Below, piece by piece: positions 12,339 through 49,905 of a DNA stretch of 64,000 nucleotides. This DNA is from Deinococcus sp. (GTDB lineage: Bacteria > Deinococcota > Deinococci > Deinococcales > Deinococcaceae), in NCBI GenBank assembly GCA_965261005.1, contig OZ253375.1, positions 716,057 through 780,056 on the forward strand. Reading direction: 5' to 3'. The position numbers and the translations under genes were made by a program. The notes beneath the pieces were generated by a model. That model was not told the DNA's origin. It did not search any database and was given only the letters and a program-made list of their open reading frames with translations. Numbering within the stretch: the first letter of the stretch is position 1; every line of letters starts with the position of its first letter.

Positions 12339-12556
12339 CGACGCCCCGAACAGACCGTCACCTTTAAGAAATCTTTCGGTAACTTTCACACAGATATCAG
12401 ATTAAGATTAACTTAATATAAGCAGAGGACCGACCCGCCCCACCTTCCTCTGAACATATTCCGTACAGCTCACCCCCGTTGTTCGCCGCCCCGAGCCGCG
12501 ACAGGTCCGGCCTGTCGCCCGTCCATCCCGCTTCGCCCCCGTCAAGGAGCCTTCTC

Positions 12557-14365
12557 ATGCCCGACGCCACCCCCTTCCACCTTTCCATTTCCAGGCTGGG
12601 CCTGCGCACGTTGGGTCTGGTCAGCCTCACGCTCAGCCTCGCCGCCTGTGGCGGCGTGAGCGCGCCGACCCCGTCGGCGGCGGTGCCAGCGGCCCCGAGC
12701 GCGACGTCCGCCAACGAGAACGCCGGTGAGGGCGAGGCCCTCCTTTGGAGCGAGACGGCGGCGGGCGTTCAGGCGCTGTCGGTGAGCGGCGCCGAGCAGG
12801 CCCTGAGCGCCGCGCCGTGGCAAGCGGCCAGCAGCGGCTGGGGACCCATCGAGCGCGACAAAAGCAACGGCGAGCGGAACGCCGGGGATGGGCACGCGCT
12901 GAGCGTGGGGGGCAAGACGTATGCGCGCGGCTTCGGCGCCCACGCCACCTCGCAGATGACCTTCACGCTCGACGGCCGCCAAACCGGCTTCAGCGCCGGC
13001 GTCGGCGTGGACGACGAGGTGGGCAAGCGCGGCAGCGTGGTGTTTCAGGTGTACGCCGACGGTCAGAAGCTGTTCGACAGCGGCGTGATGCGGGGCGGGG
13101 ACGCGGCCAGGAGCGTCAACGTCGGCCTGACGGGCAAGCGCGAACTCCGGCTGGTCGTCACCGACGCGGGCGACGGGGCCAACTACGACCACGCCGACTG
13201 GGTGAACCCCACCCTGCACGGCACCCAGGAGGTGCGCTACGGCGGGCCGCTGGTCATCACCAAGGGGGGAACCTACACGGGCGATTGGGAAAGCTTTGAT
13301 CCCAAGGTGAGCGCCGTGACCGTCAAGACCAGCGAGCCGGTCGTGATCGAGAACTCGAACTTGCGCGGGGTGGGGCACCTGATCACCGGCTTCAAGAACC
13401 GCCTGACCGTGCGCGGCTCGCACGGCCACAACCTGACGCCGAACGTTCTCGGCAAGGCCAGCGGCAACTTCATTCACCTCGGGGAGGTGATCAACCTCGA
13501 CGTGGAGAACAACACCTTCGAGGGGGGCGGCATCTACCTCGACCGCTACACCGGCGACGGCGTGAGGGACACCGTCACCGTCCTGCGCAACGTGGTGAAG
13601 AACGTGGACGGCCGCTTGAGCGACGGCCAGGGCGGCTGGCTGAGCGGCGACGGGGATGACCAAAAGGCGCGCGTCATCAAGAGCTTTTTGCAGCTCAACG
13701 CGGTGCAGCGCGTCCCCAACGTCGAGATCGCTTGGAACCAGGTGGTTAACGAACCCTCCAAGAGCGTGGTCGAGGACACCCTGAGCGTCTACCGCAGCTC
13801 GGGCACGCCGAACAGCCCGATGGCCATTCACGACAACTACCTTCAGGGCGCCTACCCGCTGTCCCCCGAGCAGGCGCCGACCTACTACGGCGGCGGCATC
13901 ATGCTGTGCGACGGCGCCGTGAGCGATCCGCTCGACTGCGGCTACACCCGCGTGCGTGACAATCAAGTGGTGGCGACCACCAACTACGGCATCGAGATCA
14001 TGGGCGGGGTGGACAACCAAGTCGAGCGCAACCGCGCCGTCACCTCGGGCCGCCTTGCGGACGGTACCCGCATTCCCAGCACCAACGTCGGCTTGGTCGT
14101 GTGGGACTACTCCGGGGTGCTCAAGGTCAACCCGCAGCTCTTCGCGCGCAACGTGATGCGCGACAACGAGGTGGGCTGGACCAAGGTAAGCGCCGACGGC
14201 AAAATCAGCAACAACGTGTGGTGGGCGCCGCAAGGGACCACCAACGGCGGCGTCTTCAGCAACAAAGCCCTCGGCACCGTCACCCCCGACATGGAGCGCG
14301 CCGAGTTCGCGCGCTGGCAAGGCAAGCTGGCCAGCGCGGGCGTCAAGCTGGGCGCGCCGGAGTAA
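12557..14365 (+). CDS. Lipoprotein with NPCBM/NEW2 carbohydrate-binding domain and right-handed parallel beta-helix repeats
   Basis: AAGGAG RBS then ATG 12557. Lipobox LSLAAC. NPCBM core WGPIERDKSNGE...GKTYARGFGAHA...VFQVYADGQKLFDSG...RLVVTDAGDGANYDHADW. C-terminal repetitive N/G/V-rich beta-helix-like segments. Confidence 0.85.
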   Translation: MPDATPFHLSISRLGLRTLGLVSLTLSLAACGGVSAPTPSAAVPAAPSATSANENAGEGEALLWSETAAGVQALSVSGAEQALSAAPWQAASSGWGPIERDKSNGERNAGDGHALSVGGKTYARGFGAHATSQMTFTLDGRQTGFSAGVGVDDEVGKRGSVVFQVYADGQKLFDSGVMRGGDAARSVNVGLTGKRELRLVVTDAGDGANYDHADWVNPTLHGTQEVRYGGPLVITKGGTYTGDWESFDPKVSAVTVKTSEPVVIENSNLRGVGHLITGFKNRLTVRGSHGHNLTPNVLGKASGNFIHLGEVINLDVENNTFEGGGIYLDRYTGDGVRDTVTVLRNVVKNVDGRLSDGQGGWLSGDGDDQKARVIKSFLQLNAVQRVPNVEIAWNQVVNEPSKSVVEDTLSVYRSSGTPNSPMAIHDNYLQGAYPLSPEQAPTYYGGGIMLCDGAVSDPLDCGYTRVRDNQVVATTNYGIEIMGGVDNQVERNRAVTSGRLADGTRIPSTNVGLVVWDYSGVLKVNPQLFARNVMRDNEVGWTKVSADGKISNNVWWAPQGTTNGGVFSNKALGTVTPDMERAEFARWQGKLASAGVKLGAPE

Positions 14366-14444: not shown

Positions 14445-14684
14445 TTAGGGAAACTTCGGCTTGCCCGCTTGCCAGCTGCCCTGCGGCCCGCCGGCCCAGT
14501 GCCACGCCCCGGCCGGGCGGCTGGCCAAGCAGCGTGAAATGTCCGCCAGGGGAACGCGGCGCGCGAAGCGGGTGGTGGCGTGCCAGCGGGCCAGGGCGCT
14601 CGGCAAGTCGCTGGGCCGGGTTCCAAGGACAGAGGTGCTGGCGCGGTTGACCGCGAGATCGAAGAGGGCGTCCGGCGCGCTCAT
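14445..14684 (-). CDS. Hypothetical small protein (79 aa), possibly a gene remnant
   Basis: ATG 10 nt downstream of the DinB-family gene stop. Third-codon-position GC bias looks coding. No recognisable motif. Confidence 0.3.
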   Translation of the reverse strand: MSAPDALFDLAVNRASTSVLGTRPSDLPSALARWHATTRFARRVPLADISRCLASRPAGAWHWAGGPQGSWQAGKPKFP

Positions 14685-14694
14685 TTAAGCTCGT

Positions 14695-15075
14695 TCAGGC
14701 CGTGCGCACGCCCGCGAGCGCGGCGATCTGACCGGCGTGCCACGCCGAGTGACGCGCGTTCAGGCGGATCAGGGCCGCCACGCTGAGAACGCGGCCGGCA
14801 TACCCGGTTTCGAGGCCCAGCTGGCCCTCGCCGAGGCGCGAGACTGCCGCCATCTCCCACTCCATCAACGCGCTCAGGTCAGCTTCCGCCGGCGGCGCGG
14901 GCGTGCCGGTGACTTGCGCGATCAGGCGCCAGTATTCGCGTTTGGTGTCGGCAAGGTGCAGCGTCAGCCAGGCCATCCTGGGCGGCACTTGGCCGCGCGC
15001 CATGCTCAGGGCGCTCGACACCGATTCCCAGGAATCGAAGTTGACCTCCTCAAGCAGCGCGCGCAGCTGGTCCAT
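14695..15075 (-). CDS. DinB-family (four-helix bundle, metal-binding) protein
   Basis: 126 aa. C-terminal LNARHSAWHAGQIAAL is typical of DinB/YfiT-like proteins. Confidence 0.7.
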   Translation of the reverse strand: MDQLRALLEEVNFDSWESVSSALSMARGQVPPRMAWLTLHLADTKREYWRLIAQVTGTPAPPAEADLSALMEWEMAAVSRLGEGQLGLETGYAGRVLSVAALIRLNARHSAWHAGQIAALAGVRTA

Positions 15076-15465
15076 TCAGGTCAGCTTATAGCCGTTCGCG
15101 TCCGCGCGCAGGCGACCGGCCTCCAGCAGGCGGTCCACGGCGCCGCGCGCTTGGCCCTCGCTGAGGGGAGAGTCGCGCAGCAGATCTTCCAGCGCGAACC
15201 GACCGCCGCGCCGCATGGCGAGGCGCAGCACCATGCGCTCGGCGGCGTCCGGCCTGGGCGGGGCGCTGGACGCCCGGCCGAAAGCGCGCCACACCAACAG
15301 GCCGACCAGCAGACCGGCGATCAGTTCCAGCGGCAACAGCTCGAAAGCGAGCAGCGGGTCGCCTTTGCTTGGAAAGGGGTTGCCGTGGGTGTACACGGCC
15401 CCGTAGGCGATCAGGGCGGCGCCCAGGGCGGCGAGAACAGTGAGCAGCGAGCGCGGCCAATTCAC
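15076..15465 (-). CDS. Small membrane protein with C-terminal winged-helix-like tail (full-length copy A of a duplicated gene)
   Basis: NWPRSLLTVLAALGAALIAYGAVY and LLPLELIAGLLVGLLVW form two TM helices. Tail is AERMVLRLAMRRGGRFALEDLL...GAVDRLLEAGRL. Start uncertain: GTG 15465 is conserved in both copies, and the ORF is open to 15555. Confidence 0.55.
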   Translation of the reverse strand: MNWPRSLLTVLAALGAALIAYGAVYTHGNPFPSKGDPLLAFELLPLELIAGLLVGLLVWRAFGRASSAPPRPDAAERMVLRLAMRRGGRFALEDLLRDSPLSEGQARGAVDRLLEAGRLRADANGYKLT

Positions 15466-15507
15466 TCCCCCATCATGCCGGCGGGCCGGGCGGCAGATGG
15501 TGTGCCG
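15201..15507. repeat. Direct repeat copy A (about 307 nt), partner at 18769-19074
   Basis: Manual alignment gives about 30 mismatches and 1 indel over about 307 nt, in the same orientation. Confidence 0.85.
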
Positions 15508-15671
15508 TTGAGCCGGCGCTGACCGCACCCGCGCGATTGTCTCCGGTGCGTACAAGGCGCCGCCCGACGTGGACGGCGTGCCGGTCTTGACCCAACCGCG
15601 CCGTTTGTCGGGCGTGCCGGTGACCGTCTATACCAGAGGGGACACAGCCGAGGAAAGGTGCATACCTAAGG

Positions 15672-16553
15672 TCAGCCCCAGTTCAGCCACCCAAAAGCCC
15701 GAACCACTTTGTGAAACGACCAAGCGGCGATTCGGCAGATTGGACGTTGGTACCACGGGCGGTGATGGCAGATGTCACGCATGTTCCCGAGAAAGACGTC
15801 GTCCGTACGTGCGCGGTTGCCCTCCGTCTTTTGATAACGCGGAATGTTACGGTATCCGAAGTCATGCACATTGCACGCGGGCCTAAACCTCTCTGAATAT
15901 TTATTAATAATGCCCTGCGCAACCGTGATGGGTAGATTGTTCGTCCGCGCCTTGGTGATCAATTCGGGGACCGAGCAACCGTCACGGCTCCAGTCGAGTT
16001 GATTGAGAAAGGGGGTGTTGCCGGATGACATGAAGATATACTCATGGTCGTAATGATCGACCGTCCCCCAACCGACACTTTTGACGTAGGTCAGCACTGC
16101 CGGCTCGCTCGGTGGAGGAGGTCCAGGCGCGACAGGATCGTCCGGCACACACTCGATGGCGTATGGATCAGAACAGTCAATGGGAATCGCGAGCGCCTGC
16201 GCTGCCTGCGGCGACCCATTGGGCGGCGTCGCCGGACTTTCGGGTTCGTAGTACGACGCTTCCGCCTCCGCGACGAACGTAGGTTCCTGCCAATTGGTGT
16301 ACAACGCCTCCGTGGCTTCGGGCTCCTGCGTTTCGGGACGGTCGGCCAGCCAGTCGGCGCGCACGGCAAGGTCGTTCAACCCCTCTTCCTGGGCTGTTAG
16401 CGGGCCGACCTTGGGATTCAGGTACGCCGCCCACGGACGCGGTCTTGACGCTGAGGGCGCCGAGGACTGGGGTGAGGGCGGCGCGCTCTGTCCACAAGCA
16501 GCGAGCAAAAGGGCGAGGCTGGCGGCGAGCAGCAAACTTCCGTGTGTCCTCAT
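15672..16553 (-). CDS. Secreted lipoprotein with C-terminal prokaryotic phospholipase A2-like domain
   Basis: Lipobox LLLAAC. Acidic/Pro-rich linker. DWSRDGCSVPE...FRPACNVHDFGYRN...RTDDVFLGNMRDIC...ICRIAAWSFHKVVRAFG matches the Cys pattern and the HD-x2-Y-x-N catalytic motif of Streptomyces-type PLA2. Confidence 0.82.
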   Translation of the reverse strand: MRTHGSLLLAASLALLLAACGQSAPPSPQSSAPSASRPRPWAAYLNPKVGPLTAQEEGLNDLAVRADWLADRPETQEPEATEALYTNWQEPTFVAEAEASYYEPESPATPPNGSPQAAQALAIPIDCSDPYAIECVPDDPVAPGPPPPSEPAVLTYVKSVGWGTVDHYDHEYIFMSSGNTPFLNQLDWSRDGCSVPELITKARTNNLPITVAQGIINKYSERFRPACNVHDFGYRNIPRYQKTEGNRARTDDVFLGNMRDICHHRPWYQRPICRIAAWSFHKVVRAFGWLNWG

Positions 16554-16766
16554 ACGTCCCCCTGTGACGACGCGCGAAAGACGAGGCCCAGCACCCGTTC
16601 AAGCGTTGAACGGCGCGCAGATTCAGGTCCTGCCCATCGGCTTTGTGTTCGTCTGCAATTAAGCTAACGACTTTGCGCCCCGATTCGCGCGTGCAAAGCG
16701 TCATGAGAGGCGTGACCATCGTCATGGGTCACACACGGCCGGGCGACGCCTCGCCTAGCATGCGGC

Positions 16767-17894
16767 ATGCTGACGCTCAAAGTCCTGCGCGCGGTGCGTT
16801 GGGTCAGCTTGGGTGGATGGTGCTGGCCGACGTTTTCGATGCTGAGCCGGCCGTCCCTAAAGACGTGGGCCTGGGCGGACATGTTCTCGCGAGGTCTGCC
16901 CACGCTTTCGTTTCTCGTGTACCTGCTGAGTTTCTGGTGCGCGAGCGACCCGACGCGGTCACGGGCGGTGAGGCAACGCTGGTCGGTCGTGCTCACAGGG
17001 GCCGCCCTGGTGCTCAACGCGGCCTTTCCGTCGCAGCAAGCCGTCGGGGCGTTGCTGGTGGCCGGAGCGGCCATTTTGCCAATGCACTTCAACTTGACGC
17101 ACACCTTCGCCCTGATCATCGCCCAGTGCGCCCTGCTGTTTGCCATCTTGGACGTCGCGCTGGGCAGCACGCTCGCGTGGCATGACACCGTATGGGCCTT
17201 TGGGATGGAGAGCGTGCTCGCCCTGGGCATGTCGTTCGTGTTTCACCACATGCGTTCACGTCAGCAAGGCTTCGCCTCGACCGCATACGTCATGTACGCT
17301 GCCGAACACCGCTGGCGGGAAGCCGAGCGGCGGCGGATCGCGCGCGACTTGCACGACGTCGTTGGGTACAACCTCACCTTGCTGAACCTGGAACTTGAGG
17401 TGGCGCGCGCGCAGCAGGACCCCACATTGCGCGCGTCCATGCAGCGCGCGCATGTTTTAGCGGCGCGCCTGAACGAGGATTTGCGCGGCACGGTCAGCGA
17501 ACTGCGCCGAGGAGCCGTCGGTTGGGGCGAGGTCGTGCGGCCCCTCGACGTGGTCATTCCGGGGTTGACCATTCACCTCGCGCTGCGAACCGCCTCGCCG
17601 CTGTCCGAACAAACGACGCATGCTTTGGCGCTGCTGGTGCAAGAAGCGCTCACGAACACGGTCCGGCACGCGGGCGCCACCCACTTTCACGTCGAGGTAG
17701 GCGAGCAGGGTGACGGGGTCCAGCTGCGCGCGTGGGACGACGGCGCCGCGCGGGGGCCGGTCACGCCGGGGCATGGCCTTGGCGGGATGCGCGAACGCAT
17801 CGAGGCGGTTGGCGGCACGCTCACGCTTCGCTTGTCGCCCGGTCGGTCGGTGTGCGTGGAAGCGCGCGTCCCCTTCGCTGAGGACACGGCGTGA
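16767..17894 (+). CDS. Membrane sensor histidine kinase (NarL/DesK-type, HisKA_3)
   Basis: About 5 N-terminal TM helices. H-box RIARDLHDVVGYNL. N/G boxes EALTNTVRHAGA ... GHGLGGMRERIEAVGG. Confidence 0.85.
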   Translation: MLTLKVLRAVRWVSLGGWCWPTFSMLSRPSLKTWAWADMFSRGLPTLSFLVYLLSFWCASDPTRSRAVRQRWSVVLTGAALVLNAAFPSQQAVGALLVAGAAILPMHFNLTHTFALIIAQCALLFAILDVALGSTLAWHDTVWAFGMESVLALGMSFVFHHMRSRQQGFASTAYVMYAAEHRWREAERRRIARDLHDVVGYNLTLLNLELEVARAQQDPTLRASMQRAHVLAARLNEDLRGTVSELRRGAVGWGEVVRPLDVVIPGLTIHLALRTASPLSEQTTHALALLVQEALTNTVRHAGATHFHVEVGEQGDGVQLRAWDDGAARGPVTPGHGLGGMRERIEAVGGTLTLRLSPGRSVCVEARVPFAEDTA

Positions 17895-18526
17895 TTCGGC
17901 TCGGCCTCGTCGACGATCACCTGCTGGTGCGCGAAGGTCTGCGGCGACTGCTGGAGGCGTCAAACGACGTTCGGGTCGTCGCGGAGGCGGCCAGCGTGGA
18001 GGGGGCGGTTCGCGCCGTCCTCGAACATCGCCCAGATGTGTTGCTGCTCGACGTGTGGTTGCCGCCGCGCAGCGGCCTCGACGTCATGGAAGCCTTGAAG
18101 GTTCTCGGATGCCTGCCTCCAACGTTGTTGCTGTCCTCCTTCGAGGATCTGGATGTGCTCACGCGCGCCAAGCGGCTGGGCGCGCTCGGCTACCTGATCA
18201 AGGACGTCAGCGTCGAGGTGCTCTTGGCGGCGGTGCGTTCCGTCGCGTCGGGTCGGCCGGTCACCCGTCCGCTCATCGGCGAGGACGTTCACGCGCGCGC
18301 ACGGACACTTGAGCGCGAGCGCGCGAGCGGTCAGCTGAGCTTGACGCCGCGCGAGCGTGACGTGCTGGGCCTGATCGCGAGCGGGCAGTCGACGCGTGAC
18401 GTCGCGCGCAGCTTGGGCCTACAGGAGGGGACGGTCAAGAATCACTTGTCGAACGTGATCATGAAGTTGGGAGTGCGCGACCGCACCCAGGCCGTGCTGC
18501 GGGCCTTGCAATTCGGGCTGCTGTGA
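17891..18526 (+). CDS. Response regulator, LuxR/NarL-type HTH
   Basis: REC domain (DVLLLDVWLP). C-terminal LTPRERDVLGLIASGQSTRDVARSLGLQEGTVKNHLSNVIMKLGV. GTGA overlap with the kinase gene. Confidence 0.92.
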   Translation: MIRLGLVDDHLLVREGLRRLLEASNDVRVVAEAASVEGAVRAVLEHRPDVLLLDVWLPPRSGLDVMEALKVLGCLPPTLLLSSFEDLDVLTRAKRLGALGYLIKDVSVEVLLAAVRSVASGRPVTRPLIGEDVHARARTLERERASGQLSLTPRERDVLGLIASGQSTRDVARSLGLQEGTVKNHLSNVIMKLGVRDRTQAVLRALQFGLL

Positions 18527-18718
18527 AGCTCAGCATGCAGGCCCCGGCCGCTGAACGCCCACGTCTGAACGTCCATGCCGAGGACATTCCGGAACCAAAC
18601 CGCACGATTTGACGATCTGGTTCGCCGGCTCAGCGGAGAGGACCCACGGCCTTGATGACCCCGTCGTTGGCCGCGCGAACGCGGCGCCCGTCCATTTTGA
18701 GGACGGCGCGGTCGTAGG

Positions 18719-19033
18719 TCAGCAGGCCGTTGACTTCGGTCTCGACGTCGGTCGGTCATCTGGGTGTGGACCGCCGCGCCGCATGGCGAGGCGCAACACC
18801 ATGCGCTCGGCGGCGTCCGGGCGGCGCGGGGCGCCTATGGCCCGTCCGAAGGCGCGCCACACCAACAGGCCGACCAGCAGACCGACGATCAGTTCCAGCG
18901 GCAACAGCTGAAAGGCGAGCCGCGGGTCGCCCCTGCTCGCAAAGGGATTGCCGTGGGTATACACGGCCCCGTAGGCGATCAGGGCGGCGCCGAGGGCGGC
19001 GAGAACAGCGAGCAGCGAGCGCGGCCAATTCAC
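18719..19033 (-). pseudogene. Truncated copy B of the 15076-15465 membrane-protein gene
   Basis: NWPRSLLAVLAALGAALIAYGAVYTHGNPF...AERMVLRLAMRRGG is colinear with copy A. Homology then stops, and the frame ends after 17 unrelated codons (PHPDDRPTSRPKSTAC). The winged-helix-like tail is missing. Confidence 0.55.
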
Positions 19034-19074
19034 CCCCTCATCATGCCGGCAGGTCGGGTGGCCATGGTGTGCCG
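18769..19074. repeat. Direct repeat copy B, partner at 15201-15507
   Basis: See copy A. Confidence 0.85.
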
Positions 19075-19122
19075 CGCTTGTTCTGGCTGGGCTTGTTCTG
19101 ACTACAGTTGGTATAACCAGGC

Positions 19123-19854
19123 GTGAACCCACTCTTCGACTTGAGCGGCAAGCGCGCCTTGGTGACGGGGGCGAGCCGGGGCATCGGCCTGGCGGCGGCG
19201 CGCGCCCTCCAGGACCTGGGCGCCGAGGTCATCATCTGCGCGCGCGGCGAGGCGGCGCTGCGTGAGGCGGCAATGGGGCTGGGCGTGGGGGCCATTGCCG
19301 CCGATTTGAGCGATTCCGGCGACATTGAGCGTCTGCTCACCCAGGCCGGCGACCTCGACATTCTGGTCAGCAACGCGGGCGGGCCGCCCGTCGGGGTGAC
19401 CAGCCAGCTGGACGACGCGGCCTGGGCGCGCGGCTTCGAGCTGACCTTTATGTCCACGGTGCGCCTCGCGCGCGGGGCGCTGCCGCACATGCGCCGCCAG
19501 GGGTGGGGCCGCGTGATCGCCATCACCAGCCTGACGGTCGGGCGGCCCAGCCCCGAACTGCCGGTGTCGAACGCCATGCGCGCGGGCGTGACCAACTTCG
19601 CGCGCTCGCTTGCCTTGGAGGTGGCCGCGGGGGGCGTCACGGTCAACACCGTCGCCCCCGGCTACACCGCCACCGAGCGGCTGCGCGAGGTGACCAAAAA
19701 TCCCGAGGACCGGCGGCGCGTGCTGGACCGCTTGCCCGCGCGCCGCTTCGGCGCCCCCGAAGAGGTCGCCCACGCGGTCGCCTTTCTCGCCAGCCCGGGC
19801 GCCGCCTACATGACCGGGCAGGAGCTGCTGGTGGACGGGGGATGGAGCATCTGA
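19123..19854 (+). CDS. SDR-family oxidoreductase (FabG-like)
   Basis: VTGASRGIGLAAA, NAGG, S...Y(not classical)...PGYTAT, MTGQELLVDGG. Confidence 0.88.
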   Translation: MNPLFDLSGKRALVTGASRGIGLAAARALQDLGAEVIICARGEAALREAAMGLGVGAIAADLSDSGDIERLLTQAGDLDILVSNAGGPPVGVTSQLDDAAWARGFELTFMSTVRLARGALPHMRRQGWGRVIAITSLTVGRPSPELPVSNAMRAGVTNFARSLALEVAAGGVTVNTVAPGYTATERLREVTKNPEDRRRVLDRLPARRFGAPEEVAHAVAFLASPGAAYMTGQELLVDGGWSI

Positions 19855-19862
19855 GCTGACTT

Positions 19863-20285
19863 TTAGATGGCCACCTCCGGCCGCTCCAGAACAGCTTCCA
19901 GCGCGATCTCGGCGTTTAAGGTGGCGGCCACCGAGCAGTACTTTTCGTGCGACAGCCGGGCGGCGCGCGTCAGGGCCTCCTCGGTCACGCCCTCGCCCCA
20001 CGCGACGTGGCGCACGGTAATGTGGGTGAAGCGGCGCGGTTGGCTTTCCGCGCGCTCGCCCTCCACCTCGATGCGGTAGCTGGTCAGCGGCGTCCTCTTC
20101 TTGTTCATCACCGTCACCACGTCGTAGGCGGTGCAGCTGGCGAGGGCGGCCAAGAGGGCCTCGGTGGGGCGCACGCCCACCGCCAGGGGCGAGGCGTCAA
20201 TCAAAAGCTGCTGGCCGCGCTCGTTGAAGCCGGCGTAGCGTTGCTCGCCCAAATGATGCACGGTCATCTTCATGGTTTGGCTCAT
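19863..20285 (-). CDS. OsmC-family protein
   Basis: PTEALLAALASCTAYDV and HEKYCSVAATL give the two-Cys OsmC pattern. Confidence 0.85.
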   Translation of the reverse strand: MSQTMKMTVHHLGEQRYAGFNERGQQLLIDASPLAVGVRPTEALLAALASCTAYDVVTVMNKKRTPLTSYRIEVEGERAESQPRRFTHITVRHVAWGEGVTEEALTRAARLSHEKYCSVAATLNAEIALEAVLERPEVAI

Positions 20286-42020: not shown

Positions 42021-42551
42021 GTGAAAAATGCATTGCTCTTGGCGGTGAGCGCCGTCTTGTTGTCTTCATGCAACGTTCTGCTGGAGGGGAACGGGCCGGG
42101 AAGGAGTGGCGTCCGCATCGACGCCCTGCGCTTCGACAGCAACTTCACGCTTGGCAACGGCGTTTCTTACGGGAACGTCTACTTCCCGCGCGGCGGCCCC
42201 GTGATCTGCGACAACGTGACCACCGTCCTGAGCTACGGCTTCGTCTACGGCGGCGACCTCGCCAGCTGGACCAGCACGCTCGTCGGCCTCACGACCGGGC
42301 AGGAATCCGACGACCAGGAGTTCTACCTGACCAACTACCCACCGCTGAACGGCACCGTCACGGTGAACAACTACTACGTCGGGCCGCGCACGGTCCCGCT
42401 GAACCTCGGCAAGGTCAAGGCCCAAGGCATTGTCGTGAACCCAGAGGTGATCGGCGTGACCAAGGTGCGCGTGCGCGCCTTCGATTCGTACGGTCAGTCA
42501 GACTACGAGACGTACAGCAACCCGCTGCCCGTGCTGGGCAATTGTTACTAG
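42021..42551 (+). CDS. Lipoprotein of unknown function (paralog 1 of 3)
   Basis: Lipobox LLSSC. Cys pair (ICDNV ... GNCY). QGIVVNPE motif. Confidence 0.7.
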   Translation: MKNALLLAVSAVLLSSCNVLLEGNGPGRSGVRIDALRFDSNFTLGNGVSYGNVYFPRGGPVICDNVTTVLSYGFVYGGDLASWTSTLVGLTTGQESDDQEFYLTNYPPLNGTVTVNNYYVGPRTVPLNLGKVKAQGIVVNPEVIGVTKVRVRAFDSYGQSDYETYSNPLPVLGNCY

Positions 42552-42561
42552 GAGGAAACGT

Positions 42562-43116
42562 ATGAAGAAGACACTGATGTTGATGGGTGTAGGTGTATTG
42601 CTGGCGAGCTGCGGCTCTACTCAGGTTGGCTCGGCGAAGCTGACCATCACGGGTTTGCGCACCGAGTACCGGACCACAGCCGGAGCGTATGTGGCCTGCG
42701 ATAACGTGGCCTATCCTGACGGCACGACGACCAGCACGACCCAAGTCGCCGCTGCTTTCAACGCGACGGGCGACGTGTCCTCAGTGCAAGTAGCTTTACA
42801 CGGCAACTCTACAGCCAAGTACGACAACAACTACGTGGCGACCTTTACACGCGAGCAGCTCGACGCAGTTGGAGGCAACGATTTCGTGGCCCTCTTTGAT
42901 GCGGACGCGTCCAAGAACGTCTTGCCTCAGAGCATCACGGTCAACCCAGCCAGGCGATACATCAAGATCGTCACACCCGTCGGCGATTCCCCTGGCAGCT
43001 TCCGCACGGATATCACCCTCACGAATGAAGGCAACTCGGGCACCGCCTTTGGTTTGACCAACATTGCCGTTTATACGGGCTGCAACGTGACGAGCAAAAC
43101 GGACGAGCAACTTTAA
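42562..43116 (+). CDS. Lipoprotein of unknown function (paralog 2 of 3)
   Basis: AGGAGG RBS. Lipobox LLASC. Cys pair (ACDNV ... GCNV). QSITVNPA motif. Confidence 0.7.
   Translation: MKKTLMLMGVGVLLASCGSTQVGSAKLTITGLRTEYRTTAGAYVACDNVAYPDGTTTSTTQVAAAFNATGDVSSVQVALHGNSTAKYDNNYVATFTREQLDAVGGNDFVALFDADASKNVLPQSITVNPARRYIKIVTPVGDSPGSFRTDITLTNEGNSGTAFGLTNIAVYTGCNVTSKTDEQL

Positions 43117-49830: not shown

Positions 49831-49905
<75 letters not shown>

What the first reader, a model, noticed from the sequence alone, without database searches (positions are those of the whole stretch)
15201..19074. AT-richer 3.3 kb cassette (PLA2-like lipoprotein plus two-component system) bracketed by about 307-nt direct repeats of a partially duplicated gene
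**Seen in the sequence.**
- 15201-15507 and 18769-19074 are direct repeats. My manual alignment gives about 30 mismatches plus one 1-nt indel in about 307 nt.
- Both repeats are the 5' two-thirds of the same minus-strand membrane-protein gene.
- Copy A continues into a winged-helix-like C-terminus and abuts the DinB-family gene.
- Copy B keeps the promoter-proximal part next to the SDR gene, but loses homology after ...AMRRGG and stops 17 codons later.
- The interior carries a secreted phospholipase A2-like lipoprotein (minus strand) and a divergently oriented NarL-type kinase/regulator pair.
- The interior is visibly less GC-rich than its surroundings, for example ctctgaatatttattaataatgcc.

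**Inference.**
- The cassette was acquired horizontally and integrated by recombination within, or with a homolog of, the membrane-protein gene.
- The repeats could support excision or loss by homologous recombination.
- No integrase or transposase is present.
Basis: partly seen in the sequence, partly recalled or inferred. Interest (0 to 1): 0.7.

Follow-up and report, generated by a model that had tools for sequence, protein, structure and literature searches.

The report
Phospholipase–sensor cassette inserted with target duplication
A 3.3-kb piece of DNA carrying a secreted phospholipase A2 and a sensor kinase/regulator pair was spliced into a small membrane-regulator gene of a Deinococcus chromosome, duplicating 306 bp of that gene; it is a clean but ordinary example of gene gain without any mobile-element enzyme.

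Summary
Positions 15201-15506 and 18769-19073 are direct repeats with 30 mismatches and one 1-nt indel (blastn E 7e-116). They cover 41 nt of upstream sequence plus codons 1-88 of a 129-codon two-helix membrane protein with a winged-helix C-terminus.

Seven contigs from four related Deinococcus lineages have SDR | membrane gene | DinB-like gene contiguous and single-copy. So the 3,262-bp interior (15507-18768) is a lineage-specific insertion.

The cargo is:
- a PLA2 lipoprotein;
- a HisKA_3 kinase with an overlapping NarL-type regulator;
- a previously unnoticed 139-nt 3' remnant of a GH2-like glycosidase gene, fused directly to the truncated copy B.

The cargo was therefore a random chromosomal fragment, not a mobile element. 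Only the PLA2 gene is compositionally odd (GC3 0.68, z = -4). The kinase and regulator fall in the normal range.

The two repeat copies are each other's closest relatives. They diverged about equally, with dN/dS 0.32. My best model is a circularised fragment from a related Deinococcus that integrated by one homologous crossover. The main rival is an in-situ target duplication that has since aged.

No donor or close relative was found. The kind is known and the interest is modest.

The parts
14445..14684 (-). Conserved 79-aa ORF, the last gene of the native membrane-gene / DinB-like / 79-aa unit (left flank, not part of the insert).
   Evidence: A 79-aa gene sits in the same position in L001, L003, L004 and L006. 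No Pfam or NCBIfam hit.
14695..15075 (-). DinB-like gene (126 aa), native left flank.
   Evidence: 79-81% aa identity to the gene following the membrane gene in L001/L002. Pfam DinB_2 only below threshold.
15076..15465 (-). Copy A: the full-length 129-aa protein with two transmembrane helices and a C-terminal winged helix.
   Evidence: Equals P0001. Hydropathy gives 2 TM segments. Model and fold search indicate a winged helix at residues 74-128. Its 3' third is orthologous to L001/L002.
15201..15506 (.). Direct repeat A: codons 1-88 plus 41 nt upstream, including the conserved CACACCAT and GGCATGxTG motifs.
15507..15671 (.). Left end of the cargo: 165 nt of unexplained sequence between repeat A and the PLA2 stop codon.
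   Evidence: No homology to L001/L002 upstream regions. No Pfam or plasmid hits in any frame.
15672..16553 (-). Secreted phospholipase A2-like lipoprotein (293 aa), the compositional outlier.
   Evidence: PF09056 57 bits. PDB PLA2s 7ygk/1faz with the HD motif aligned. Lipobox and catalytic motif conserved in homologues. GC3 0.68, z = -4.0.
16554..16766 (.). Divergent intergenic region between PLA2 and the kinase (GC 0.62), the presumed shared control region.
   Evidence: No consensus sigma-70 site found.
16767..17894 (+). HisKA_3 (NarL/DesK/LiaS-class) sensor histidine kinase with a hydrophobic N-terminal half.
   Evidence: Pfam HisKA_3 + HATPase_c. NCBIfam partial matches to UhpB/MadS/LiaS, all below cutoff. 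Full-length homologues exist only in three Deinococcus sources, at 48-51%.
17891..18526 (+). NarL-type response regulator whose start overlaps the kinase stop codon.
   Evidence: Response_reg + GerE. 64-66% identity to the regulators paired with the homologous kinases in L011-L013.
18630..18768 (-). 3'-terminal remnant (about 45 codons plus stop, with one 4-nt frameshift) of a GH2-like glycoside hydrolase gene. It is the right end of the cargo and is fused directly to repeat B.
   Evidence: 122 library hits at E <= 1e-3 (best 6e-7), all to the ...YTQTTDVExEVNGLxTYDRxVxKxD C-terminal motif. tblastn lands on genes annotated as sugar-binding domain or GH2 proteins. Reading frames are shown. GC3 of about 0.9 in that frame is my own count from the sequence.
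18769..19073 (.). Direct repeat B.
18719..19033 (-). Copy B: truncated ORF of 88 native codons plus 16 unrelated codons. It keeps both TM helices and helix 1 of the winged helix and lacks the rest.
   Evidence: Substitutions at positions conserved in the close homologues (P32A) and in most homologues (P70R). This exact 104-aa product is not in the protein collection.
19074..19122 (.). Native part of the SDR / membrane-gene divergent intergenic region. It is retained only next to copy B.
   Evidence: Aligns with L001/L002 through into the SDR start.
19123..19854 (+). SDR gene, native right flank.
   Evidence: 83-86% aa identity to the SDR next to the membrane gene in L001/L002. Pfam adh_short_C2.

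Best explanation
**What is shown**
- The ancestral locus was SDR <-> membrane-wHTH gene - DinB-like gene - 79-aa gene.
- In this lineage a 3,262-bp fragment (15507-18768) was inserted.
- About 306 bp of the target was duplicated: 41 nt upstream plus codons 1-88.
- The result is an intact copy A still joined to its downstream genes, and a truncated copy B still joined to the native SDR-side intergenic region.
- The cargo is a piece of ordinary chromosome. It holds a PLA2 lipoprotein gene, a HisKA_3 kinase/NarL regulator operon, and the last ~45 codons of a convergent GH2-like glycosidase gene whose broken end is fused base-to-base to the broken membrane gene.

**Inferred mechanism**
1. DNA from a related Deinococcus was taken up. 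In that donor, the PLA2-kinase-regulator-GH2 block lay just upstream of its own copy of the membrane gene.
2. A fragment running from inside the membrane gene to inside the GH2 gene was circularised by end-joining. That joint is 18768|18769.
3. The circle integrated by a single homologous (Campbell-type) crossover within the shared ~306 bp.
4. This automatically yields the two direct repeats, about 10% apart because they come from two genomes.
5. The repeat retains the conserved motifs next to the start codon that fit a leaderless-type promoter. Copy A and its operon probably stay expressed.

**Inferred function**
- The cargo is a self-contained unit: a lipoprotein plus an intramembrane-type kinase plus a regulator.
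- The regulator probably controls the divergently transcribed PLA2 and/or responds to envelope or lipid perturbation.
For: **Insertion and empty sites**
- Relatives with the uninterrupted site.
- Junction anatomy: copy A is orthologous on its 3' side and copy B on its 5'/SDR side.

**Cargo is a random fragment**
- The GH2 remnant runs right up to the junction.
- The cargo has no recombinase and no terminal inverted repeats.

**Repeats fit two genomes of origin**
- A and B are sister sequences: 90% to each other against 81-83% to L001/L002.
- Outgroup-polarised changes are about equal (A 11-12, B 14-15).
- dN/dS(A,B) is 0.32, like the orthologue comparisons at 0.35-0.55. This is as expected if both copies diverged as working genes in separate genomes.

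**Precedent**
- Single crossovers of circularised incoming fragments give 109-950-bp duplications flanking the insert (PMC3240628).

**Module coherence**
- The homologous kinase/regulator pairs in D. planocerae (L011), L012 and L013 are each preceded by a lipoprotein gene.
- In L008 the closest PLA2 (57%) sits directly upstream of such a kinase.

**Promoter inference**
- CACACCAT and GGCATGxTG are conserved 6-38 nt upstream of the GTG in A, B, L001 and L002.
- Leaderless mRNAs with an ORF-adjacent -10 are common in Deinococcus (PMC4007540, PMC12340547).
Against: - No donor or near relative was found. The closest homologues are 57% (PLA2), 48-51% (kinase) and 64-66% (regulator), so the predicted donor arrangement is unobserved.
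- The dN/dS argument rests on only 9 nonsynonymous and 10 synonymous codon differences.
- Copy B carries changes at conserved residues, which also fits a decaying in-situ duplicate.
- PLA2 has GC3 0.68, unlike a close Deinococcus donor. The cargo would have to be a mosaic already.
- PLA2 is divergent from the kinase here but in tandem with it in L008.
- No promoter or expression data exist, and the consensus sigma-70 scan found nothing.
- The function of the module is inferred from gene linkage alone.
Confidence: 0.55

Rival explanations
1. In-situ insertion with target duplication. The foreign fragment 15507-18768 was ligated into a staggered break (nicks about 306 nt apart, or a repair/replication template switch) in this lineage's own membrane gene. 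Both repeats started identical and have since diverged about 5% each. Copy B was either retained under some selection or is decaying slowly.
For: - The final structure is the same as in the best explanation.
- A and B are each other's closest relatives.
- Copy B has lost conserved P32 and P70 and has slightly more derived changes.
- dS(A,B) of 0.19 is below the dS of 0.27-0.36 to L001/L002, so the timing is possible.
- The GH2 remnant already carries a frameshift.
Against: - A dead copy B should push dN/dS towards about 0.6-1 and give B clearly more changes than A. The observed values are 0.32 and roughly equal branches, although counts are small.
- It needs two illegitimate joints plus an unusually long 306-nt fill-in.
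- The documented route to 100-950-bp flanking duplications is a single crossover.
Confidence: 0.27
2. The arrangement is ancestral. The two copies are old paralogs, and the cassette was lost repeatedly in relatives by recombination between the repeats.
For: Recombination between the repeats would precisely regenerate the SDR | single gene | DinB-like layout seen in relatives.
Against: - All 17 related loci examined lack the cassette.
- A and B are 90% identical to each other but 81-83% to L001/L002, so their split postdates the split from those relatives.
- The GH2 stub and the odd PLA2 composition mark imported DNA.
Confidence: 0.04
3. An unrecognised mobile element (transposon, integrative element or recombinase-in-trans cassette) inserted site-specifically into the membrane gene.
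For: It is a discrete 3.3-kb unit with direct repeats at its ends.
Against: - No transposase or integrase domain occurs in any cargo ORF.
- There are no terminal inverted repeats.
- The 'target duplication' of 306 bp is far longer than transposase-made ones.
- One end is a broken housekeeping-type gene.
- No second copy exists in the window or in plasmids.
- The homologous modules in L008 and L011-L013 sit in unrelated contexts without such repeats.
Confidence: 0.04
4. Assembly artefact: a collapsed or chimeric join across a repeated gene.
For: None specific. The window genome itself could not be retrieved for read-level checks.
Against: - The repeats differ at 31 positions, so they cannot be confused by an assembler.
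- The proteins of the locus (copy A, the DinB-like protein, the kinase and the regulator) are recorded on a single 2.96-Mb contig.
- Both junctions lie inside continuous reading frames with a coherent gene-fusion structure.
Confidence: 0.02

Closest known systems
Campbell-type (single-crossover) insertion-duplication of a non-replicating circular DNA, as with suicide plasmids or circularised incoming fragments (PMC3240628)
   Same: - The insert is flanked by direct repeats of a few hundred bp of a chromosomal gene.
- One copy is 3'-truncated and fused to foreign sequence, while the other is complete.
- No dedicated recombinase is involved.
- The duplication size (306 bp) lies within the reported 109-950 bp.
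   Different: - This is a natural event in Deinococcus, not an engineered or conjugative plasmid.
- The repeats are 10% diverged.
- The circular intermediate and the donor are inferred, not seen.
Homology-facilitated illegitimate recombination during natural transformation
   Same: It combines one homologous anchor with one illegitimate joint to add foreign genes without mobile-element functions. Deinococcus is naturally transformable (my own background knowledge).
   Different: Classical HFIR replaces or deletes recipient DNA of similar size and usually shows 3-10 bp microhomology. Here recipient DNA is duplicated, not deleted, and microhomology cannot be assessed without the donor.
Prokaryotic secreted phospholipase A2 (Pfam PF09056; Streptomyces violaceoruber PLA2, PDB 1faz/1lwb)
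   Same: - The C-terminal ~110 residues match the family above threshold.
- The DGCS and CxxHDFGYRN motifs and the cysteines are conserved.
   Different: - It is a 293-aa lipoprotein with a long Pro-rich linker and a ~16-residue loop insertion. This form is shared only with P0050-P0052.
- It is only 32-40% identical to the usual ~210-aa Deinococcus PLA2, of which the same genome has a copy (P0120).
Three-gene envelope-stress modules of accessory protein + HisKA_3 kinase + NarL regulator (LiaFSR-, DesKR-like)
   Same: - The kinase is a HisKA_3 type with a hydrophobic N-terminal half. Its regulator is NarL-type and overlaps the kinase gene.
- In homologous loci a gene for an exported protein lies immediately upstream.
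   Different: - The partner is a lipoprotein (PLA2, or an uncharacterised 255-273-aa family), not LiaF.
- All NCBIfam matches are far below cutoffs.
- In the window the partner gene is divergent rather than co-directional.

Membership tests
Campbell-type insertion-duplication (single homologous crossover) | Insert flanked by direct repeats of one chromosomal segment | tested here: met
   306-bp repeats at 15201-15506 and 18769-19073.
Campbell-type insertion-duplication (single homologous crossover) | Uninterrupted, single-copy target site in relatives | tested here: met
   L001-L007 and L014-L023.
Campbell-type insertion-duplication (single homologous crossover) | Each repeat copy is contiguous with native sequence on one side only, and one copy is truncated | tested here: met
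   Copy A has the native 3' side. Copy B has the native 5' side and is truncated at codon 88.
Campbell-type insertion-duplication (single homologous crossover) | Incoming circular molecule carrying the homologous segment (a donor allele) | not testable with these tools
   No donor or closer relative is in the databases. The best membrane-gene homologue is 78%. The balanced branches and dN/dS 0.32 are only indirect support.
Transposon / insertion sequence | Transposase gene, terminal inverted repeats, short (2-14 bp) target duplication | tested here: not met
   No such domain, no terminal inverted repeats, and a duplication of 306 bp.
Integrative element / genomic island with site-specific recombinase | Integrase gene and att repeats, often at a tRNA gene | tested here: not met
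   No integrase in the cargo or the adjacent syntenic genes. The only tRNA in the window is at 49831-49902.
Prokaryotic phospholipase A2 (PF09056) | Domain match above the curated threshold | tested here: met
   57.0 bits against a 29.4 cutoff, residues 183-288.
Prokaryotic phospholipase A2 (PF09056) | Catalytic His-Asp pair in the CxxHDFGYRN motif and conserved cysteines | tested here: met
   ACNVHDFGYRN aligns to 7ygk and 1faz. The columns are invariant across 8 homologues.
Prokaryotic phospholipase A2 (PF09056) | Phospholipid sn-2 hydrolysis activity | not testable with these tools
   Needs an enzyme assay.
Bacterial lipoprotein | Signal peptide ending in a lipobox cysteine | tested here: met
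   The N-terminus is hydrophobic. LLAAC(20)GQ is conserved in all aligned homologues except the truncated P0052.
NarL-class two-component system | HisKA_3 + HATPase_c kinase adjacent to a receiver + GerE/LuxR regulator | tested here: met
   All four domains are above threshold, and the genes overlap at 17891-17894.
LiaFSR / DesKR equivalogs | Score above the NCBIfam equivalog cutoff | tested here: not met
   LiaS scores 52.7 against a cutoff of 450, MadS 54.9 against 500 and MadR 141.9 against 300. The pair is class-level relatives only.
Winged-helix DNA-binding domain (C-terminus of the duplicated gene) | Three-helix bundle plus beta-hairpin wing | tested here: met
   The model has helices at 74-85, 92-98 and 103-116 and strands at 119-122 and 125-128. 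Foldseek hits are Z-alpha, MarR, GntR and Rrf2 domains, with probability up to 1.0 and TM 0.84 on the target but E only 0.02-0.2. The Pfam PaaX hit is sub-threshold.
Glycoside hydrolase family 2-like protein (remnant) | Match to the conserved C-terminal motif of annotated GH2 / sugar-binding-domain proteins | tested here: met
   E down to 6e-7 in 1.8 billion proteins. Motif comparison. Annotated hits.

The most novel reading that the evidence does not exclude
Two readings are not excluded.

1. Copy B is not a dead stub. It could be a maintained 104-aa two-helix membrane protein, expressed from the native promoter, that modulates its full-length winged-helix parent (for example as a decoy or partner). 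This is hinted at by dN/dS of about 0.3 on both branches.
2. The lipoprotein-kinase-regulator trio, with a PLA2 or an uncharacterised lipoprotein as the exchangeable first member, could be an undescribed Deinococcus three-component system. The exported lipoprotein would be a co-sensor or effector of membrane-lipid state.
Probability: 0.12. Interest if true: 0.5.

Novelty: new member of a known kind. Interest (0 to 1): 0.28.

Why it matters
- It is a tidy natural example of how a naturally transformable, multi-genome-copy bacterium can add a working gene module using only homologous recombination and end-joining.
- Both scars are still readable: a 306-bp duplication and a broken GH2 gene.
- It shows that flanking direct repeats of a host gene, without an integrase, can flag such events in raw sequence.
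- It links a divergent PLA2 lipoprotein to a rare kinase/regulator family, which gives a testable regulatory hypothesis.
- It does not open a new class of element or mechanism.

Tried and rejected
- **Own genome.** A look-up for the window's own genome and name failed. P0001 is not on record as a gene position, and the genome-contig scan did not return it.
- **Plasmid origin.** Only short regulator-domain hits were found.
- **Inverted repeats.** Searches around the PLA2 gene and at the cargo ends, done to explain the inverted PLA2 orientation or a transposon, gave only chance-level pairs.
- **Promoters and terminators.** The sigma-70 scan found no promoters, and terminator counts were near the shuffle expectation.
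- **Left cargo end.** Translations of 15507-15671 had no Pfam or plasmid tblastn hits, so this piece is unexplained.
- **Upstream lipoproteins of L011-L013.** These 255-273-aa proteins have no detectable similarity to the window PLA2 or to any window sequence, and the one scanned (L011) has no Pfam hit.
- **NCBIfam.** No hits for the membrane protein, the DinB-like protein or the 79-aa protein.
- **Literature.** A search for Deinococcus + PLA2 + two-component returned nothing relevant.
- **Crossover point.** I considered locating it from the order of A-derived and B-derived sites. I rejected this because neither model predicts a pattern.

Full report
**1. The observation**

The region holds one long direct repeat. 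The repeat finder reports 15201-15494 and 18769-19062 at 90% identity without gaps. With one 1-nt gap the homology runs 15201-15506 / 18769-19073, giving 305 aligned positions, 30 mismatches and one gap column. blastn gives a 307-nt alignment at 89.9% identity with E = 6.6e-116. No other long repeat of this region exists in the 64-kb window.

**2. What is repeated**

- The repeated gene lies on the minus strand. Its real product is 129 aa, starting at GTG 15465. This is the form present in the protein collection (P0001) and in all homologues.
- The repeat covers 41 nt upstream plus codons 1-88.
- Hydropathy gives two transmembrane helices.
- An AlphaFold model built on 16 homologues (mean pLDDT 80) shows helices at 74-85, 92-98 and 103-116 followed by a beta-hairpin.
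- Foldseek matches that part to winged-helix domains (Z-alpha, a Sulfolobus DNA-binding protein, MarR, GntR and Rrf2 regulators). TM is about 0.84 on the target and probability reaches 1.0, though E-values are weak (0.02-0.2).
- Copy A (15076-15465) is complete.
- Copy B (18719-19033) keeps both membrane helices and only the first helix of the winged helix. It then reads 16 unrelated codons and stops.

**3. It is an insertion**

- The closest available relatives all carry SDR (divergent) | one 129-135-aa membrane gene | DinB-like gene | 79-aa gene, with nothing in between. They are L001 (a 637-kb ENA contig, 76% aa), L002 (78%), L003, and L004-L007 (four samples).
- The window's left flank (14447-15528) and right flank (18771-19900) both align to L001. 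The alignments overlap by about 326 bp there, and that overlap is the duplicated piece.
- Ten more Deinococcus species found in the genome collection have a single copy. It is followed by the DinB-like gene in all but D. lacus (L023), where no DinB-like match was found.
- A multiple alignment fixes the junctions. Copy A is orthologous to L001/L002 on its 3' side and diverges completely upstream of 15506. Copy B is orthologous on its 5' side, right through the intergenic region into the SDR start, and diverges completely beyond 18769.

**4. The cargo (15507-18768, 3,262 bp)**

*PLA2 lipoprotein.*
- 15672-16553 (minus strand) encodes a 293-aa lipoprotein with the lipobox LLAAC.
- Its C-terminal domain matches prokaryotic PLA2 (PF09056, 57 bits against a cutoff of 29.4). 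It aligns to solved PLA2s with the CNVHDFGYRN motif intact.
- It belongs to a rare long subtype. P0050 is 57% identical, P0051 48% and P0052 50% over half the length.
- Ordinary ~210-aa Deinococcus PLA2s are 32-40% identical, and the same genome has one of those (P0120).

*Kinase and regulator.*
- 16767-17894 (plus strand) is a HisKA_3 + HATPase_c kinase. 17891-18526 (plus strand) is a receiver + GerE regulator overlapping it.
- Full-length kinase homologues exist in only three sources at 48-51%: D. planocerae and two metagenomic contigs. Their paired regulators are 64-66% identical.

- The minus strand of 18630-18768 is the 3' end of a glycoside-hydrolase-family-2-like gene.
- It reads HTQMTD, then a 4-nt slip, then DVETEVNGLLTYDRAVLKMDGRRVRAANDGVIKAVGPLR*.
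- It matches the ...YTQTTDVEIEVNGLMTYDRAVLKMD... C-terminal motif of many proteins (122 hits at E <= 1e-3, best 6e-7, in 1.8 billion proteins).
- It also matches genes annotated as sugar-binding domain or GH2 proteins.
- The remnant runs right up to base 18768. So junction 18768|18769 is a direct fusion of two gene interiors.

*Remaining pieces and mobility genes.*
- The 165 nt at the other end (15507-15671) matched nothing.
- No cargo ORF has a recombinase domain. No terminal inverted repeats exist, and plasmid searches gave nothing useful.

**5. Composition**

| Feature | GC3 | z |
|---|---|---|
| 52 other genes of the window (mean, sd) | 0.873, 0.048 | |
| PLA2 | 0.684 | -4.0 (lowest of all) |
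| Kinase | 0.827 | -1.0 |
| Regulator | 0.840 | -0.7 |

The 'AT-richer cassette' is really an AT-richer PLA2 gene plus its upstream spacer (GC 0.62). The kinase and regulator are unremarkable. The PLA2 homologue in L009 sits on a 62%-GC contig, whereas the one in L008 has GC3 0.91. The cargo may thus be a mosaic of different ages. This is an inference.

**6. The cargo as a functional unit**

- In L011, L012 and L013 the homologous kinase/regulator pair is preceded on the same strand by a 255-273-aa lipoprotein. These form a family of their own (44-52% identical to one another), carry an ...MACGN lipobox, and the L011 member has no Pfam match.
- In L008 the nearest PLA2 homologue is followed 120 bp downstream, on the same strand, by a kinase. 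That kinase's N-terminus is 61-67% identical to the L011-L013 kinases.
- So lipoprotein + kinase + regulator recurs, with PLA2 as one possible first member.
- In the window the PLA2 gene is inverted relative to that layout and shares a 213-bp divergent spacer with the kinase.
- I infer that the regulator controls PLA2 and/or that the system reports envelope or lipid perturbation. Nothing here tests that. NCBIfam matches to LiaS, MadS, UhpB, NarL and MadR are all far below their cutoffs.

**7. History of the repeats**

- A and B are 90.2% identical. Each is 81-83% identical to L001/L002. Their common ancestor is therefore younger than the split from those relatives, which rules out ancient paralogs with repeated loss.
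- Polarising the 31 differences with the outgroups gives 11-12 changes on A, 14-15 on B and 4 ambiguous.
- Over the 88 shared codons, dN = 0.062, dS = 0.191 and dN/dS = 0.32. Comparisons of A or B with the L001/L002 orthologues give dN/dS 0.35-0.52 and dS 0.27-0.36. For the flanking SDR and DinB-like genes against L001/L002, dS is 0.32-0.49.
- Balanced branches and a constrained ratio are what two working alleles from two genomes would show. A dead in-situ copy should be visibly faster and less constrained.
- Against this, the counts are small: 9 nonsynonymous and 10 synonymous codon differences. Copy B has also replaced conserved prolines: P32, conserved in the close homologues, and P70, conserved in most.

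**8. Mechanism**

- The most economical route needs one illegitimate joint and one homologous crossover.
  1. A fragment from a related Deinococcus extends from inside its membrane gene, through the PLA2-kinase-regulator block, to inside a GH2 gene.
  2. The fragment is circularised, making joint 18768|18769.
  3. The circle recombines once with the recipient's membrane gene.
- In this model the other boundary (15506|15507) is simply where donor and recipient synteny differ.
- This is the Campbell-type outcome. In E. coli conjugation experiments, single crossovers of circularised incoming molecules gave duplications of 109-950 bp of the homologous locus flanking the insert. Classical homology-facilitated illegitimate recombination instead deletes recipient DNA (PMC3240628).
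- The rival is insertion of 15507-18768 into a staggered break with a 306-nt fill-in, followed by divergence. It gives the same map and is not excluded.

**9. Consequences for the host genes**

- The repeat retains two blocks conserved among A, B, L001 and L002: CACACCAT at about -38 to -31, and GGCATG(A/C)TG ending 6 nt before the GTG.
- Deinococcus mRNAs are frequently leaderless with a -10 element adjacent to the ORF (PMC4007540, PMC12340547).
- It is therefore plausible that copy A and its downstream genes are still transcribed from the duplicated 41 nt. This is an inference, and the generic sigma-70 scan found no site.
- The longest perfectly identical runs between the repeats are 33, 32, 27 and 24 nt. 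Loss by homologous recombination is possible but should be infrequent.

**10. Verdict**

Two corrections apply: the compositional signal is confined to PLA2, and the cargo ends in a broken GH2 gene, which shows it was a random chromosomal fragment.
- The event belongs to a known kind, recombinase-free insertion-duplication of acquired DNA.
- The proteins are recognisable family members, although the PLA2 subtype, the kinase family and the duplicated membrane winged-helix protein are all uncharacterised.
- Interest is modest.

Noticed in passing
window 15672-16553 (-): The deposited annotation of the PLA2 gene appears to start 58 codons too late. P0049 is 235 aa, against a 293-aa ORF, so it omits the signal peptide and the lipobox that are conserved in P0050, P0051 and other homologues.
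   Followed up: partly
same genome, outside the window (protein P0120): The genome also carries a second, ordinary 214-aa Deinococcus-type PLA2 that is 32% identical to the cassette's PLA2. The cassette copy is therefore an extra, divergent one.
   Followed up: no
window 14445-15465 (-); L001-L007, L014-L022: The membrane winged-helix gene and the DinB-like gene are adjacent in nearly all Deinococcus loci examined, and the closest relatives also carry the 79-aa gene. None of the three has a Pfam or NCBIfam family above threshold.
   Followed up: partly
window 12479-14365 (+): An NPCBM + beta-helix gene lies between the 79-aa gene and the pyroglutamyl peptidase gene here. Its homologue follows the 79-aa gene in L001. 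In L003, L004 and L006 it is absent and the peptidase follows the 79-aa gene directly. This is a second variable spot next to the finding.
   Followed up: no
window 42200-43116: This is the lowest-GC stretch of the whole window: 880-bp windows fall to 0.58. It contains an ORF at 42562-43116 with GC3 0.72, so it is another compositional outlier.
   Followed up: no
L011 6985-7806, L012 3693-4460, L013 463-1269: An uncharacterised 255-273-aa lipoprotein family (lipobox ...MACGN, Pro-rich linker; no Pfam hit for the L011 member, the only one scanned) always sits directly upstream of the kinase/regulator homologues.
   Followed up: partly
L001 1213-3414, L004 731-2857: The PhoH-like ATPase gene in the relatives carries weak LAGLIDADG_3 hits between two PhoH segments, which suggests an intein.
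   Followed up: no
window 49831-49902 (+): This is the only Rfam match in the window, a tRNA gene. It is unrelated to the insertion site.
   Followed up: no
window 19034-19122: The SDR / copy B intergenic region carries about 35 extra nt (…CCAACTGTAGTCAGAACAAGCCCAGCCAGAACAAG…, with the AGAACAAG repeat) compared with L001/L002.
   Followed up: no
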